From positions 6,069 to 70,068 of the forward strand of contig JAGROX010000003.1 in assembly GCA_020440025.1 (NCBI GenBank): DNA of 64,000 bases, in the 5' to 3' direction. The notes beneath the pieces were generated by a model, which was given only the letters and a program-made list of their open reading frames with translations, did no database searches and was not told where the DNA came from. This stretch comes from Verrucomicrobiia bacterium. GTDB lineage: Bacteria > Verrucomicrobiota > Verrucomicrobiia > Verrucomicrobiales > DEV007. This document shows, one piece after another, positions 47,415 to 64,000 of this stretch. How positions within the stretch are numbered: the first letter of the stretch is position 1; every line of letters begins with the position of its first letter. The translations under genes and the position numbers were made by a program.

Positions 47415-50400
47415 TTATTCAGGCTTCGCGTCATCGTCATCGTCCTCCCGAGGAGCTGCGCCTTCGGGCACTGGCGCCGCTGAGCTTCCCCCACCGTAGC
47501 CGAGAACCTGGACGGTGATGACGGAAGGGGGAGCCTCGGTGGTCGTCGTGTTCGACTGTCTCCTCGAGGCCTCTTCTGTGGCGCTTGCGGTTGTCGTCGA
47601 CGCTCCCGCCGTTGAGGCTGCGGCGCTGAGTCCGCCGATATTGGGAGCGGAAACCGTGGGGGCCGCCGGTGCTCCCGTGGCTGACCCGCCCACTGATATA
47701 TTCGAGGCATTCACCACCTGAGTTGCCGCGAGGTTGATGTTGCCCGTGACTCGGATACCGGCATCTCCGGCATCGATGACTCCGGTGGGAGCGATCAGAT
47801 CGACGTCGCCCGGCATCACGCCAGCCACGGTGTCGAGCACACCGATTCCACCGCCGGTGGCAAGGCCTGCCAGATCGGTCTCGACGGTGGCGCTTTGGGG
47901 ATCGATCAGAACGCGAGTCGGCGGCGCCGATTGAACCGTCTTCGATGAAGAACCTGCGGCGATATCACCGCTCGAAGACCAGATCATGATATTGCCTCCC
48001 CGGAGGGTGAAGATACGACCGACACCAATGTCGACATTGGTATCCGTGAAGATGGAGATATCGCCGCCGGACTCAGTAACGATGCCAGGAGGCACTAGAG
48101 AATTGGCATCAAGCGTGCTCGAAAGGGTGAGCCCACCGCTCGGAGCGAGGATGGCGATATCGCCACCATTCTGTGTTCGGATATTGCGAGCGCGGGTGAG
48201 GATTTCACCCTGTCCGCCACCTTGGCCAAACAGGGCATCGATGGCGGCGAACCCGGAGTCATAGTTGCCAAACCCTGGGCTGGTGGGGTCATTGAAATTT
48301 CTACCGGCATCCCGGAGGATGAGATAGAAGACCTCCAATGCCTTCTGTGCCTGTTGTTCGGCGGATAAGCTGTCGAAATCATCAATTCCGAGCTCGGCGA
48401 GATAGCGATCGCCCTCTGCTCCCTTTACGAACTGATCAATGAAAGATTGGATTTCGATATCACTGTTCGCAAGGCTGGTGGCGGAACCGATCCCGGCACC
48501 GACAATCAGGTTGGCACCTTCAAAAGATAGAAAGGGATTTCGAGAGTTACCTAGACTGACGATACCAGTTCCGGTGCCGTCGGGATTGTTGGATCCTGAA
48601 CCGAGATCCACGTCGCGCTCAGCGAGCACCTGAAGACTTCCGGGGCCGCCAATATGAATGTCGCCCGCTCTCGGGCTCTCATTGACCGCGAGAGCATTTC
48701 CGGATGCGAGGGAATTCACCCGCAGTGGGCTGGCTGAGTTATAGGCGGTAATGTCTCGGCCTGCCGTGATGATGGTCGCATCTTCTTCGCCGAGATTCTG
48801 GAGATAGAAAGCGATGTCGGAAATATCATTCGAAGCATAGATCCGAGAAGCTTTGGGAGAGAAGAGCCGAAGGCCCGAAAGGTTTCCACCCAGGGCGTAG
48901 ACCCTGAGCGGATCTGAATCGTTGAGATGGAGCAGACCAGGAGTATGCAATGCCTGTTTCGTTTGAGAGACAGCGAATCGGCCGGTATTGGAACCCGACT
49001 CCGAAAAGAGATTGCCGATGTTGGCGAGGAAGTTGTTTTGAGTGTTGATGTTGGCGTTGGAAGAGCTGCCCGCGACACTGAAGTAGGCGAAGGGATCGAT
49101 TGCGGAGGGAACGGAGTTCGGATTGGCGTCAGAGACGTTGATCTGTGAGGCGCTCCAGAGTCTGACGGTTTGTCCGGGGAACCGCGTGGTGGATAGGCCG
49201 ATCGGCTGCAAGGCATTAATCTGATTCGCGGCGAGCAGCTCAAGCTGTCCACTGGGCGCGGGGAAGAGAGTGATGTCTCCAGCCAGATTGATGTCTCCAG
49301 CCAGAGAGGTGGCGCGAAGGGTGGGAGGCTGCACCGGGAGGATGGCGGAGAAGGGTTGGAGACTGGTTTCCGCGAGTCGCAACCAGGGATGGTAGTAAGC
49401 CGCTCCGGTAGGACCGACGGAGAGTAGCTGTTGTTTTTCGAGCCAGACCTCGAGGATGTTTCGGGAAACCGCGCTATCGGGGGTCACGACGGAGTTGCGC
49501 AGGGTCACATCCCCACCGAGAGACGAAACATTGATGGCGGAGTCCGGGCTGTAGGTGCTGAAATAGCTCTTATACCAGAATCGGTTGTTCAGACCGGGAG
49601 GAAGGAGAAACGGGTTACCGGTGGGCCCGAGAAGGAGATCTCCATTCGCGGAAACATTGAAAGTACTCTTGCCGGCAAACAGGGTGGTCGGAAGCCATGT
49701 CAGGGGATCGAGGCGAGCGGTATCGGGATTGTTCAGATTTTGAATGATGCCAAGGGACGGCGACCGAGTGGCGTTGGTCGTGATCTCGTTGCCGGCTTCG
49801 AGGCGACCGGTGCCTCGCTCCACGTAGTAGATGCCGCCATCGATGTTGTTGCCGCTCCGAATCAGCAGATCTCCGCCACCGAGTTCCAGCAACTTGTCGG
49901 CATCGGGAGCGCCGATGGCTGCTCTTGAGTTGGTCGGGATGACGGCATCGACATTCTTCACATCGAGCCCGGCAACCAAGGAGACATCGCCACCTCCCAG
50001 AGCGCCGACGCCTTGGAAGAAATTGCTGAAGTCAACCCACCAGCTGGTGGAAGCGGCGGGGTCGGTCAAGGCAATCGGACCCGATCCGACTCTAACCAGG
50101 CCATAGTTCCCGTCGGACCCGATGTATCCCCGGCGATAGAGCCAGTTGTTCGGCAGTTGCCGTGAAGAATCGTCGATCAGACCCGAATTGTTGGCGGTTT
50201 TTCGCTCAATATTTTCGCCAGCCGAGATGAAGACATTGCCTCCGCCCATGCTGTACTGAGCGGGGTAGGATTGTTGGCGCGCACCCAGGCTGCCTTGCGT
50301 CAAATTGCTGACAGTGATGGGAACCACGAAGTCGTTGGCCGCGAAGATCGACGTGGGATTGGCCACCTGGGTTCCTGCGGTGTAGATCGAAGCGAAGGGA

Positions 50401-63737: not shown

Positions 63738-64000
63738 GGGTAGAAGGGGAATGGGTGTTTTCCGGTTCGAAGCCGCTTTCTGCGGTCCCCATGGCTGCGC
63801 CGACCAATTCCGGCTCGGACTTCGCTTTTGTCTGAGGCTTCGGCTTCTCTGCGGCGGAAACCATCGGACTGCCATCCTCGCCGGGTGGCGGATAGAACTC
63901 GGCCATCTTGGCGATGAACTCGTCGATGAAGACCTGCATGCCAGCGAGGAGCGATTTGATTCGCGAGCTGAGATAGCTGTAGATGAAGAGGGCGGGAATG
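63727..64000 (-). CDS. exbB: MotA/TolQ/ExbB-family proton channel, C-terminal part only (continues beyond the window)
   Basis: The frame is open to the window end. My own translation of 63940-63999 gives IPALFIYSYLSSRIKSLLAG, then MQVFIDEFI..., which is the last TM helix plus tail of ExbB-like proteins. It overlaps the exbD start by 11 nt. Confidence 0.7.
   Translation of the reverse strand, partial: IPALFIYSYLSSRIKSLLAGMQVFIDEFIAKMAEFYPPPGEDGSPMVSAAEKPKPQTKAKSEPELVGAAMGTAESGFEPENTHSPSTHAN

What the first reader, a model, noticed from the sequence alone, without database searches (positions are those of the whole stretch)
47415..64000. ExbB-ExbD-TonB, a porin-like barrel, a coiled-coil protein and a PPIase packed in one array with a 3780-aa TPS-domain exoprotein, and no obvious TpsB
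Seen in sequence: seven co-directional minus-strand genes have tiny or overlapping junctions.
- exbB/exbD overlap by 11 nt.
- exbD to tonB gap is 58 nt, and tonB to the barrel gene is 65 nt.
- The barrel stop and coiled-coil start share 1 nt (TGATG).
- Coiled-coil to PPIase gap is 49 nt, and PPIase stop to FHA start is 18 nt.
The last gene has a clear TPS (haemagglutination-activity) domain. Established knowledge: TPS-domain exoproteins are exported by a dedicated Omp85-type TpsB (FhaC/ShlB) with POTRA domains, normally encoded next door. TonB-ExbBD normally energises import. The only barrel here (668 aa) looks porin-like to me: acidic linker, LLVQRGVLTQGDA helix, GDLRFRYD, and no POTRA-like repeats visible. 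Inference: this may be a non-canonical, proton-motive-force-coupled export, assembly or anchoring module for a giant adhesin, with its own periplasmic chaperone (parvulin PPIase) and a coiled-coil spacer. TonB-dependent export has been reported for Myxococcus Oar/PopC, so the idea has precedent.
Basis: partly seen in the sequence, partly recalled or inferred. Interest (0 to 1): 0.75.

Follow-up and report, generated by a model that had tools for sequence, protein, structure and literature searches.

The report
Giant adhesin operon with own TonB motor
This is a Verrucomicrobial copy of a widespread gene cluster, already seen but never explained in Pseudomonas aeruginosa, that joins a giant secreted fibre protein to its own TonB motor and a porin-like channel; the "missing" exporter gene most likely lies just past the end of the window.

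Summary
Seven co-directional minus-strand genes sit at the stated coordinates, and every junction distance was reproduced. The 668-aa barrel is a full-length Pfam Porin_5 protein with a porin-like predicted fold, no POTRA domain and no ShlB domain, so it is not a TpsB.

The premise "no TpsB" is a window-edge effect. In 54 of 54 homologous loci with enough upstream DNA, a POTRA_2+ShlB gene sits directly upstream of a long DUF2341/LamG-ExbB gene. The window stops inside that ExbB gene.

The order TpsB, ExbB, ExbD, TonB, Porin_5, coiled-coil protein, (PPIase), TpsA recurs in Verrucomicrobiota and in Alpha-, Beta- and Gammaproteobacteria. By gene order and published annotation it matches the P. 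aeruginosa pdtA / pdtB-exbB2-exbD2-tonB4-PA0696-PA0699 locus. That locus is induced by phosphate starvation, and the function of its Ton and porin genes is unknown.

New details found here:
- a TonB-box-like strand in the barrel's periplasmic extension;
- a near-universal short motif in the disordered C-terminal tail of TpsA;
- a recurrent PstS-like neighbour.

Verdict: a new member of a known but mechanistically open cluster. Export is by ordinary two-partner secretion. The Ton motor most likely gates the Porin_5 barrel. Interest is moderate.

The parts
63727..64000 (-). 3' end of exbB (last 91 codons plus stop); the gene runs off the window
   Evidence: The translation IPALFIYSYLSS...THAN* matches the ExbB C-terminus of L001 (52% identity, tblastn). 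It is collinear with the DUF2341/LamG/MotA_ExbB gene of L011. The stop codon overlaps the exbD start by 11 nt.
63339..63737 (-). exbD (132 aa)
   Evidence: Pfam ExbD E=3e-28; start chosen at MQTDSGK, which gives the length of the homologues (132-134 aa); present in 65/65 loci.
62555..63280 (-). tonB-family gene (241 aa): transmembrane anchor, Pro-rich and Gly-rich linker, C-terminal TonB_2 domain
   Evidence: Pfam TonB_2 E=1.6e-8 and TIGR01352 E=1.2e-5; sequence; present in 66/68 loci.
60483..62489 (-). 668-aa outer-membrane barrel of the Porin_5 family: signal peptide, acidic disordered linker, three periplasmic helices, 16-18-strand barrel ending in F
   Evidence: PF16930 E=1.1e-182, profile positions 2-535 of 535. 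AlphaFold model with pLDDT 67.6. Foldseek best matches are porins and no Omp85 protein.
61935..61979 (-). TonB-box-like strand SEDDIVVTHIPDSIK (barrel aa 171-185), between helix 2 and helix 3
   Evidence: Conserved as D-x-V-[VR]-V-[TSP]-[HY]-[IV]-P-E from Verrucomicrobiota to Alpha-, Beta- and Gammaproteobacteria, while the flanks vary. V177 is invariant in A2 (nearly invariant in A1), P181 is invariant in A1, and V184 is nearly invariant in A1. Most of it is low-confidence (disordered) in the model; residues 166-168 and 170-177 have pLDDT below 50. Its function as a TonB box is inferred, not tested.
59764..60483 (-). Secreted coiled-coil protein (239 aa) with a conserved C-terminal motif (…REPF.G…); positional and sequence equivalent of the gene after the porin in proteobacterial loci
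   Evidence: Signal peptide and heptad-rich sequence. Present in 74/75 loci. Aligns with the Methylosinus, Klebsiella, Pseudomonas and Achromobacter equivalents at 20-27% identity. No Pfam or PDB family beyond generic coiled coils.
58776..59714 (-). Periplasmic parvulin-type PPIase (312 aa, signal peptide)
   Evidence: Pfam Rotamase_2, Rotamase and Rotamase_3 with E=4e-15 to 2.5e-11. Present at this position in 31/67 Verrucomicrobial loci and elsewhere in the cluster in proteobacterial loci.
47415..58757 (-). TpsA-type exoprotein (3780 aa): TPS domain (DNA 57693-58286), long beta-helix, DUF3739 (DNA 47667-47999), disordered tail
   Evidence: Pfam TPS E=6.4e-18, DUF3739 E=4.1e-31, TIGR01901 E=2.8e-20. 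The C-terminal 330 aa were modelled with pLDDT 79.9: beta-helix followed by a disordered tail.
47487..47531 (-). Conserved short linear motif PPSVITVQVLGYGGG in the disordered C-terminal tail of TpsA, followed by an acidic tail
   Evidence: PS[ILV]xxVEV[LIV]GYGG was seen by eye in about 118 of 120 homologues (the script's stricter pattern matched 54). S295 is invariant; V299, V301, G303, Y304, G305 and G306 are nearly invariant in A3. Methylosinus has PSIITVEVLGYGG and Aquabacterium has GILTVELLSLG. The motif lies outside DUF3739 and is predicted disordered.
45793..46938 (-). PstS-like periplasmic binding protein (381 aa from MKFKSLL), downstream of TpsA; a possible accessory member
   Evidence: A family profile matches PstS structures 4ecf (E=1.8e-8) and 4exl (E=3e-7), including the R-x3-S-G-T loop. 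Homologues lie co-directionally upstream of TpsB in 12 of the 80 scanned genome loci and divergently upstream in L058 and L001. Methylomagnum has a PBP_like_2 gene beside its TPS genes, and Methylosinus has an annotated substrate-binding gene that was not scanned.

Best explanation
**What it is.** The window holds the downstream seven genes of a conserved eight-to-nine-gene envelope operon: TpsB, a long DUF2341/LamG-ExbB, ExbD, TonB, a Porin_5 barrel, a secreted coiled-coil protein, a parvulin PPIase and TpsA. It is the Verrucomicrobial counterpart of the P. aeruginosa pdtA / phdA-pdtB-exbB2-exbD2-tonB4-PA0696-PA0699 locus.

**How it most likely works.**
- The 3780-aa fibre is exported in the ordinary two-partner way, by a POTRA-bearing TpsB encoded just beyond position 64000. 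The PPIase acts as periplasmic chaperone for the unfolded intermediate.
- The dedicated ExbB-ExbD-TonB motor does not replace TpsB. It couples the proton-motive force to the Porin_5 barrel by binding a TonB-box-like strand in the barrel's periplasmic N-terminal extension. That would make the barrel an energised, gated outer-membrane conduit that works together with the surface fibre.
- The most likely physiological role is scavenging of phosphate-containing nutrients. The fibre would capture, the barrel would take up, and a PstS-like protein would bind the ligand, following the logic of HxuA/HxuB/HxuC.

**Shown versus inferred.**
- Shown: gene content, families, synteny, barrel fold class and motif conservation.
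- Inferred: the TpsB beyond the window edge, TonB acting on the barrel, the direction of transport and the cargo.
For: **Identity and synteny**
- Porin_5 matches over its full length, and the predicted fold is porin-like.
- TpsB is present in 54/54 loci, ExbB in 57/57, ExbD in 65/65, TonB in 66/68, the coiled-coil protein in 74/75 and TpsA in 54/63.
- The closest relative, L011 (83% barrel identity), has a POTRA_2+ShlB gene and a DUF2341/LamG/ExbB gene. The window end is collinear with its ExbB.
- The same order is found in Methylosinus, Klebsiella, Cupriavidus, Aquabacterium, P. chlororaphis and Achromobacter.

**P. aeruginosa literature**
- The gene list is pdtB, exbB2, exbD2, tonB4, PA0696 'putative outer membrane porin', PA0697, PA0698 (YbjN) and PA0699 (PpiC) (PMC7035377, PMC2729926).
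- They are transcribed as one unit from PphdA (PMC4971064).
- PdtA/PdtB is described as a functional TPS system (PMC7035377).

**TonB on the barrel**
- A TonB-box-like strand is conserved across phyla inside an otherwise variable, disordered linker.

**Phosphate link**
- The locus belongs to the PhoB/VreI regulon, and PdtA, PA0696 and PA0698 are among the proteins most induced by phosphate limitation (PMC9769906).
- A PstS-like gene is next to the operon here and in at least 14 other Verrucomicrobial loci (13 scanned genome loci plus L001). Methylomagnum has a PBP_like_2 gene and Methylosinus an annotated substrate-binding gene beside their TPS genes.
- Type II secretion, nuclease or PhoU genes lie nearby in L007, L008, L011 and L091.

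**Precedent**
- hxuCBA combines a TpsA, a TpsB and a TonB-dependent importer (PMC5422565).
Against: - The TpsB of this genome was not seen. The source genome is not in the searchable collections (best match 83% identity).
- No experiment links TonB4/ExbB2D2 or PA0696 to any transport. The papers call them uncharacterised.
- The TonB-box reading rests on resemblance to boxes recalled from memory (for example DTIVVTA). No binding test or complex model could be run.
- The barrel has no plug domain, so how it would be gated is unclear.
- TpsB is co-transcribed with the Ton, porin and chaperone genes while TpsA can be unlinked (9/63 loci; its own promoter in P. aeruginosa). That pattern fits a 'machine versus substrate' split, which favours a role in fibre biogenesis over nutrient import.
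- The PstS-like neighbour is recurrent but not universal. It was absent downstream of TpsA in the three extra loci examined.
- Single P. aeruginosa mutants in tpsA, tpsB, PA0695 and PA0696 had no phenotype in zebrafish (PMC2729926).
Confidence: 0.5

Rival explanations
1. The Ton motor, Porin_5 barrel and coiled-coil protein are accessory parts of the fibre's own biogenesis, working with TpsB. TonB would bind the conserved TonB-box-like motif in the disordered C-terminal tail of TpsA, or the barrel would hold that tail. The proton-motive force would then anchor, tension, retract or release the giant fibre. No nutrient import would be involved.
For: - The C-terminal motif PSxIxVEVLGYGG is near-universal, sits in an otherwise unconserved disordered tail, and is conserved into Proteobacteria.
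- TpsB, rather than TpsA, is the invariant partner of the Ton, porin and coiled-coil genes and is co-transcribed with them (PMC4971064).
- Chaperone-like genes (PPIase, and YbjN in Proteobacteria) sit in the same operon.
- In other TpsA proteins such as FhaB and CdiA the C-terminus stays in the periplasm during export (general knowledge).
- Dedicated TonB homologues that contact both receptor and substrate have a precedent in FusB (bioRxiv 10.1101/2025.10.16.682781, listed).
Against: - Two-partner secretion of fibres of similar size needs no external energy (general knowledge).
- There is no evidence that the tail stays in the periplasm.
- The motif could equally be a processing, sorting or capping signal.
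- This reading does not explain the phosphate regulon or the PstS-like neighbours.
Confidence: 0.27
2. One reading: there is no TpsB, and the Porin_5 barrel, energised by TonB-ExbBD, is itself the non-canonical exporter of the TPS-domain exoprotein.
For: - No TpsB gene is present within the 64-kb window.
- The barrel is not a classical porin gene in isolation; it is always linked to the Ton genes and the TPS genes.
- TonB-dependent secretion has a precedent in Myxococcus Oar/PopC (general knowledge).
Against: - TpsB lies directly upstream of ExbB in 54/54 homologous loci, including the closest relative.
- The window simply ends inside ExbB.
- TpsA carries a normal TPS domain, which is the recognition module for TpsB POTRA domains.
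- PdtB is reported as the transporter of PdtA in P. aeruginosa (PMC7035377).
Confidence: 0.04
3. The Ton module serves cell-surface signalling rather than transport. TonB would energise a signal relay, as in the VreA-VreR-VreI system next to the proteobacterial loci, that reports the state of the fibre or the presence of a ligand.
For: - In P. aeruginosa and Methylosinus the cluster lies next to a VreA-like receptor fragment, an ECF sigma factor and a FecR-type anti-sigma factor (PMC2729926).
- A sigma-70-family gene lies near the cluster in L011 and L040.
Against: - The Verrucomicrobial loci generally lack an adjacent ECF/FecR/VreA set (and the flanks examined).
- The Ton, barrel and coiled-coil core is conserved without them, so signalling cannot be the core function.
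Confidence: 0.07
4. The adjacency is coincidental: an ordinary Ton operon and porin happen to lie next to an ordinary two-partner secretion system, with no functional link.
For: Ton operons and porin genes are common, and the promoter and terminator scans were uninformative.
Against: - The gene order is conserved in at least 54-75 species-level genomes across two phyla.
- Start and stop codons overlap.
- The homologous genes are co-transcribed in P. aeruginosa (PMC4971064).
Confidence: 0.02

Closest known systems
P. aeruginosa PdtA/PdtB locus with exbB2-exbD2-tonB4-PA0696-PA0699 (PhoB/VreI 'PUMA3' regulon)
   Same: - The components and order match: TpsB, ExbB, ExbD, TonB, putative porin, helical secreted protein, PpiC-type PPIase, and a giant TpsA with TPS and DUF3739 domains.
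- This was verified in congeneric and related loci: P. chlororaphis L092, Achromobacter L093 and Methylosinus L005.
- It also matches the published PAO1 gene list (PMC7035377, PMC2729926).
- The long DUF2341/LamG-ExbB is shared.
   Different: - The Verrucomicrobial version lacks the YbjN gene.
- It lacks the vreAIR signalling genes and phdA.
- TpsA lies downstream at the end of the operon, not upstream with its own promoter.
- A PstS-like gene is often attached.
- The P. aeruginosa proteins themselves could not be aligned here, so that equivalence rests on genus-level homologues plus the literature annotation.
Classical two-partner secretion (FhaB/FhaC, ShlA/ShlB; type Vb)
   Same: N-terminal TPS domain with TIGR01901 motif, a giant beta-helical passenger, and a POTRA_2+ShlB transporter in every homologous locus.
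   Different: Classical systems have no dedicated Ton motor, porin-like barrel or coiled-coil protein. This TpsA also has a DUF3739 end and a conserved C-terminal linear motif.
Haemophilus influenzae HxuA/HxuB/HxuC
   Same: One operon combines a TpsA, its TpsB and a TonB-energised outer-membrane protein. The secreted TpsA serves nutrient capture for TonB-dependent uptake (PMC5422565).
   Different: HxuC is a canonical 22-strand TonB-dependent transporter with a plug, and it uses the housekeeping TonB. Here the barrel is a plug-less Porin_5 protein and the operon carries its own ExbB-ExbD-TonB.
TonB-dependent transporters (BtuB, FhuA) and Myxococcus Oar
   Same: They depend on an ExbB-ExbD-TonB motor, and a short conserved strand resembling a TonB box precedes the barrel.
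   Different: There is no Plug or TonB_dep_Rec domain. The barrel has 16-18 strands, and a helical periplasmic extension takes the place of a plug.
Porins with periplasmic helical stalks (Veillonella OmpM1, Acinetobacter DcaP)
   Same: These are among the best structural matches to the model (OmpM1 ranks 1-4, DcaP rank 7): a porin barrel preceded by N-terminal helices.
   Different: There is no sequence relationship. OmpM1 carries an SLH domain for cell-wall attachment, and none of these porins is known to be TonB-linked.

Membership tests
Pfam PF16930 Porin_5 (putative porin) | Full-length match to the family profile above the gathering score | tested here: met
   E=1.1e-182, 608.7 bits against a cut-off of 22, profile positions 2-535 of 535.
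TpsB / Omp85 transporter (for the 668-aa barrel) | POTRA domain(s) N-terminal to the barrel | tested here: not met
   No POTRA_2 or POTRA hit. The model has three helices and no alpha/beta POTRA unit.
TpsB / Omp85 transporter (for the 668-aa barrel) | ShlB/Omp85-type 16-strand barrel | tested here: not met
   No ShlB or Omp85 Pfam or NCBIfam hit. The top 50 Foldseek matches are all porins or AlgE, with no FhaC or BamA.
Two-partner secretion system (type Vb) | Exoprotein with an N-terminal TPS domain | tested here: met
   PF05860 E=6.4e-18 over aa 158-355; TIGR01901 E=2.8e-20.
Two-partner secretion system (type Vb) | Cognate TpsB (POTRA_2 + ShlB) encoded with it | not testable with these tools
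   No TpsB is in the window, and the source genome is not in the collections. Indirect evidence: 54/54 homologous loci have one directly upstream of ExbB. The closest relative, L011, was confirmed by Pfam, and the window end is collinear with its ExbB.
PdtAB-ExbB2D2-TonB4-PA0696-0699-type cluster | TpsA ending in DUF3739 | tested here: met
   PF12545 E=4.1e-31. The same architecture is seen in Achromobacter L093 and in Verrucomicrobial loci.
PdtAB-ExbB2D2-TonB4-PA0696-0699-type cluster | Gene order ExbB, ExbD, TonB, Porin_5, helical secreted protein, with a PpiC PPIase | tested here: met
   for the window; for the proteobacterial counterparts; PMC7035377 for the PAO1 gene list.
PdtAB-ExbB2D2-TonB4-PA0696-0699-type cluster | Long ExbB with an N-terminal DUF2341 + Laminin_G_3 periplasmic domain | tested here: inconclusive
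   Only the last 91 residues are in the window. All homologous loci, including L011, L092 and L093, have the fusion.
PdtAB-ExbB2D2-TonB4-PA0696-0699-type cluster | YbjN-family gene in the operon | tested here: not met
   tblastn with the P. chlororaphis YbjN hits only proteobacterial loci. It hits neither the window nor any Verrucomicrobial locus. This is an accessory gene, not part of the core.
PdtAB-ExbB2D2-TonB4-PA0696-0699-type cluster | Induction by phosphate limitation (PhoB/VreI) | not testable with these tools
   The operon's promoter region lies outside the window. The only indirect hint is the PstS-like neighbour.
TonB-dependent transporter (TBDT) | N-terminal plug domain and 22-strand TonB_dep_Rec barrel | tested here: not met
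   There is no Plug or TonB_dep_Rec hit; only Porin_5 matches. The model has 16-18 strands.
TonB-dependent transporter (TBDT) | TonB box that binds the TonB C-terminal domain | tested here: inconclusive
   A conserved D-x-V-V-V-T-x-I-P strand lies in a disordered linker. Binding was not testable.
PstS-family phosphate-binding protein (for the 381-aa neighbour) | Type II binding-protein fold with the R-x3-S-G-T phosphate loop | tested here: inconclusive
   The family profile matches PstS structures at E=1.8e-8 and 3e-7, with the loop aligned. The single sequence gives only weak hits, there is no Pfam hit, and no structure model was made.

The most novel reading that the evidence does not exclude
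The dedicated ExbB-ExbD-TonB motor does not drive a classical plugged transporter. It would drive a porin-like Porin_5 barrel, possibly the fibre's own C-terminal TonB-box-like tail, or both. That would define a new class of proton-motive-force-coupled outer-membrane machine attached to a type Vb secretion system. It could perform energised anchoring, retraction or release of a giant surface fibre, or energised uptake through a plug-less porin. The machine would be conserved from Verrucomicrobiota to Pseudomonas.
Probability: 0.3. Interest if true: 0.8.

Novelty: new member of a known kind. Interest (0 to 1): 0.45.

Why it matters
The cluster is widespread. In P. aeruginosa its products are among the proteins most induced by phosphate starvation. 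Even so, the role of its private Ton motor, its porin-like barrel and its coiled-coil protein is still described as unknown.

Showing that the module is ancient and that its core is invariant narrows the question. The core is TpsB, a long ExbB, ExbD, TonB, Porin_5 and the coiled-coil protein.

Two short conserved strands are now candidate TonB contact sites. They turn the open question of what ExbB2D2-TonB4 does into a small set of peptide-binding and point-mutant experiments in a tractable organism.

If TonB really acts on a plug-less porin or on a secreted fibre, the known repertoire of Ton-energised processes would grow.

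Tried and rejected
- **Barrel as a disguised TpsB or Omp85 protein: rejected.** There is no POTRA or ShlB hit, and the fold matches are porins.
- **Barrel as a TonB-dependent transporter: rejected.** It has no plug or TonB_dep_Rec domain and has 16-18 strands.
- **Recovering the source contig to read past position 64000: failed.**
  - The best protein hit is 81% identical.
  - The best genome locus is 83% identical.
- **Coiled-coil protein as Skp/OmpH, TolA or another known family: no support.** Only generic coiled-coil matches came up in Pfam (single sequence and 51 members) and in a profile search of the PDB.
- **Promoter and terminator scan across the array: uninformative.** Counts were at the shuffle expectation.
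- **PstS-like gene as a constant downstream partner of TpsA: not supported.** Three further loci have other genes there.
  - It is a recurrent neighbour, found in 13 of the 80 scanned loci plus L001.
  - It lies upstream of TpsB there, co-directional in 12 and divergent in L058 and L001.
  - It is not universal.
- **Type II secretion genes as constant neighbours: not supported.** A secretin is near the cluster in L011, L082, L084, L007 and L091 only.
- **Faure et al. 2014 (the PdtA/PdtB characterisation): not held in the library**, so its results are cited only second-hand.
- **TonB-peptide complex model: not attempted.** Chimeric or foreign sequences are not accepted by the structure tool.
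- **Searches by Pfam accession (DUF3739, Porin_5, DUF2341):** these found no functional study. One paper lists DUF2341-ExbB fusions as uncharacterised.

Full report
**1. Observation**

ORF listing and translation confirm seven co-directional minus-strand genes between 47415 and the window end.

| Gene | Coordinates | Evidence |
|---|---|---|
| ExbB, last 91 residues only | 63727-64000 | IPALFIYSYLSS...THAN* |
| ExbD | 63339-63737 | Pfam ExbD, E=3e-28 |
| TonB-family protein | 62555-63280 | TonB_2, E=1.6e-8 |
| Barrel, 668 aa | 60483-62489 | see section 2 |
| Coiled-coil protein, 239 aa, signal peptide | 59764-60483 | no Pfam family |
| Parvulin PPIase | 58776-59714 | Rotamase families, E about 1e-15 |
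| Exoprotein, 3780 aa | 47415-58757 | TPS E=6e-18, TIGR01901 E=3e-20, DUF3739 E=4e-31 |

- an 11-nt exbB/exbD overlap;
- gaps of 58, 65, 49 and 18 nt;
- the shared A of TGATG between the barrel and coiled-coil genes.

A tblastn search with a TpsB from a related locus found nothing in the 64-kb window.

**2. The barrel**

The 668-aa protein matches Pfam PF16930 (Porin_5, 'putative porin') end to end, with E=1.1e-182. It has no POTRA, ShlB, Omp85, Plug or TonB_dep_Rec hit.

An AlphaFold model built on 48 homologues has mean pLDDT 67.6. The barrel strands are mostly at 85-95. The model shows:
- a disordered acidic linker;
- three helices (119-133, 139-167, 182-202);
- 16 long strands, with room for two more in a low-confidence stretch.

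Foldseek against the PDB returns porins: OmpM1 at E=1.6e-14, then MOMP, OprB, DcaP, AlgE and chitoporin. No Omp85 or FhaC chain appears in the first 50 matches.

**3. The 'missing' TpsB**

Contigs encoding barrel homologues all show a POTRA_2+ShlB gene immediately upstream of a 620-670-aa DUF2341 + Laminin_G_3 + MotA_ExbB protein. That gene is followed by ExbD, TonB, Porin_5, a roughly 200-240-aa protein, sometimes a PPIase, and a TPS+DUF3739 giant.

I kept the best 80 loci. All are Verrucomicrobiota except one alphaproteobacterium.

I ran tblastn with the window proteins, plus TpsB and ExbB from L001, against these loci. I counted only loci with enough flanking DNA.

| Component | Loci with it / loci scorable |
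|---|---|
| TpsB, co-directional upstream | 54/54 |
| ExbB | 57/57 |
| ExbD | 65/65 |
| TonB | 66/68 |
| Coiled-coil protein | 74/75 |
| TpsA N-terminus downstream | 54/63 |
| PPIase | 31/67 |

The closest relative is L011, with 83% barrel identity and 90% identity over the TpsA N-terminus. It has a 560-aa POTRA_2+ShlB protein and a DUF2341/LamG/ExbB protein. The last 400 nt of the window align collinearly with the 3' end of its exbB, including the same exbB/exbD overlap.

The window therefore stops about 1.8 kb short of where the TpsB gene should start. 'No TpsB' is an edge effect. This is an inference from synteny, because the source genome itself is not in any searchable collection.

**4. 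The cluster is already known, but its function is not**

tblastn against plasmids and chromids found the same array in Proteobacteria:
- Methylosinus pMSC49a carries, in order:
  - a VreA-like gene, an ECF sigma factor and FecR;
  - ShlB, long ExbB, ExbD, TonB and putative porin;
  - a hypothetical gene, PPIase, YbjN and a filamentous haemagglutinin family protein.
- Klebsiella, Cupriavidus and Aquabacterium carry variants.

P. chlororaphis and Achromobacter chromosomes show TpsB, DUF2341/LamG-ExbB, ExbD, TonB, Porin_5, a 214-230-aa protein, YbjN and PPIase. P. chlororaphis adds a LysR regulator, and Achromobacter has a 4266-aa TPS+DUF3739 protein upstream.

This is the published layout of P. 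aeruginosa PA0690-PA0701:
- pdtA, phdA, pdtB, exbB2, exbD2 and tonB4;
- PA0696, 'putative outer membrane porin';
- PA0697, PA0698 (YbjN family) and PA0699 (PpiC-type PPIase).

Llamas et al. 2009 had already noted that TPS, ExbBD and PA0696 homologues travel together in several Proteobacteria (PMC2729926). The genes phdA through PA0701 are transcribed from one promoter (PMC4971064). PdtA, PA0696 and PA0698 are among the proteins most strongly accumulated under phosphate limitation (PMC9769906).

The window therefore holds a new, phylogenetically distant member of a known gene-cluster type.

**5. New anatomical details**

(a) The barrel's periplasmic extension contains a short strand, SEDDIVVTHIPDSIK (aa 171-185).
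- It is conserved as D-x-V-[VR]-V-[TSP]-[HY]-[IV]-P-E from Verrucomicrobiota to all three proteobacterial classes, while the neighbouring Ala-rich linker varies freely.
- Most of it is disordered in the model.
- It resembles the TonB boxes of classical transporters such as DTIVVTA. That comparison is from memory, so it is a lead and not a test.

(b) The last 80 residues of TpsA are low-complexity and predicted disordered, but they contain PPSVITVQVLGYGGG.
- The form PS-x-x-x-VEV-[LIV]-GYGG appears in about 118 of 120 Verrucomicrobial homologues by eye. A stricter pattern in the script matched 54.
- It is followed by an acidic and then basic tail.
- Methylosinus has PSIITVEVLGYGG and Aquabacterium has GILTVELLSLG.
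- The motif lies outside DUF3739, which models as the end of the beta-helix.

(c) The 381-aa secreted protein encoded just downstream of TpsA (45793-46938) belongs to a family whose profile matches PstS structures.
- The matches are 4ecf at E=1.8e-8 and 4exl at E=3e-7, with the R-x3-S-G-T phosphate loop aligned.
- Homologues lie co-directionally upstream of TpsB in 12 of the 80 scanned loci and divergently upstream in L058 and L001.
- Methylomagnum has a PBP_like_2 gene beside its TPS genes, and Methylosinus has an annotated substrate-binding gene that was not scanned.
- Type II secretion genes lie near the cluster in Cupriavidus, Methylosinus and L011. Cupriavidus also has a nuclease gene nearby, and Methylomagnum has phoU.

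**6. Mechanism**

- *Shown:* the families, the order, the conservation, the fold class and the motifs.
- *Established elsewhere:* TPS domains are recognised by TpsB POTRA domains. TonB C-terminal domains bind short strands in disordered segments of outer-membrane partners and transmit force from ExbB-ExbD. Parvulin chaperones assist unfolded periplasmic intermediates.
- *Inferred:* the steps below.

My best reading has three steps.
- The fibre is exported in the ordinary way by the TpsB beyond the window edge, and the PPIase acts as chaperone.
- The private Ton motor acts on the Porin_5 barrel through the conserved strand, which makes the barrel a gated conduit.
- The module serves phosphate-linked nutrient capture, by analogy with hxuCBA (PMC5422565).

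I put this at about 0.5, most of which rests on the identity part.

The main rival, at about 0.27, is that the motor handles the fibre itself through the C-terminal motif, for anchoring, tension, retraction or release. That reading fits the 'machine operon versus separate substrate gene' pattern better. It does not explain the phosphate theme.

**7. Verdict**

- Novelty: a new member of a known kind. The kind itself has no known mechanism.
- Interest is 0.45. The most novel reading still open is a Ton motor driving a plug-less porin, a secreted fibre, or both. I give that a probability of about 0.3, and it would merit about 0.8 if true.

Noticed in passing
window 45793-46938 (-): The secreted 381-aa protein just downstream of TpsA belongs to a PstS-like binding-protein family. 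Its profile matches 4ecf at E=1.8e-8 with the R-x3-SGT loop aligned. Homologues lie upstream of TpsB in 13 of the 80 scanned genome loci plus L001, co-directional in 12 and divergent in L058 and L001. It has no Pfam hit.
   Followed up: partly
window 40564-45666 (-): A 1700-aa protein has a choice-of-anchor I domain (MSP130-like seven-bladed propeller, E=2e-93) and InlB-type B-repeats. It lies next to the PstS-like gene. The same gene pair sits beside the cluster in L001.
   Followed up: partly
window 40564-47013 compared with L001 1-4426: In L001 the choice-of-anchor I and PstS-like pair lies upstream of and divergent from TpsB. In the window it lies downstream of and co-directional with TpsA. 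The operon is therefore inverted relative to these neighbours in one of the two genomes.
   Followed up: no
window 47014-47414: The roughly 400-nt intergenic region after the TpsA stop looks AT-rich by eye (…TTTTTCGTTTTTTATATACATAGAAAATCC…). It is the only long non-coding gap in the array and a likely separate promoter region for the PstS-like gene.
   Followed up: no
window 17252-22668 (-): This is a GldA/GldF/GldG-like set: an ABC ATPase, an ABC-2 permease, an ABC_transp_aux + DUF7088 protein (669 aa) and a DUF4340 protein. Downstream are two giant Ig-domain and propeller surface proteins (12068-16546 and 8084-12004; the latter has a CorA-like copper-binding domain hit).
   Followed up: no
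L011 1663-4029 (-) and 62-745 (+): In the closest relative a GspD-type secretin lies upstream of the TpsB gene on the opposite strand (their mechanical ORFs end 953 nt apart), and a sigma-70-family gene is nearby. This echoes the Hxc type II secretion genes next to pdtA in P. aeruginosa. A secretin is near the cluster in only 3 of the 80 Verrucomicrobial loci.
   Followed up: partly
L003/L017 11899-14000 compared with L094 7678-11230: L003/L017 keeps TpsB through the coiled-coil gene and then runs straight into a PocR/AraC-Usp-S30AE-globin block. In L094 that same block follows TpsA. This looks like a clean loss of PPIase and TpsA from an otherwise intact module.
   Followed up: no
L009 12348-13164: The Aquabacterium plasmid version of the cluster carries two tandem ExbD genes and has TpsA upstream of ExbB. 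No TpsB is visible in the stretch examined.
   Followed up: no
window 59764-60483 (-) and alignment A4: The coiled-coil protein family has a conserved C-terminal block (consensus …GxEILxRYExFGLGxALxAREPFxGxTRVKxENLVQDYxDKL; N156 and P184 invariant). The block is shared with the Pseudomonas and Achromobacter proteins at the PA0697 position. No known family matches.
   Followed up: partly
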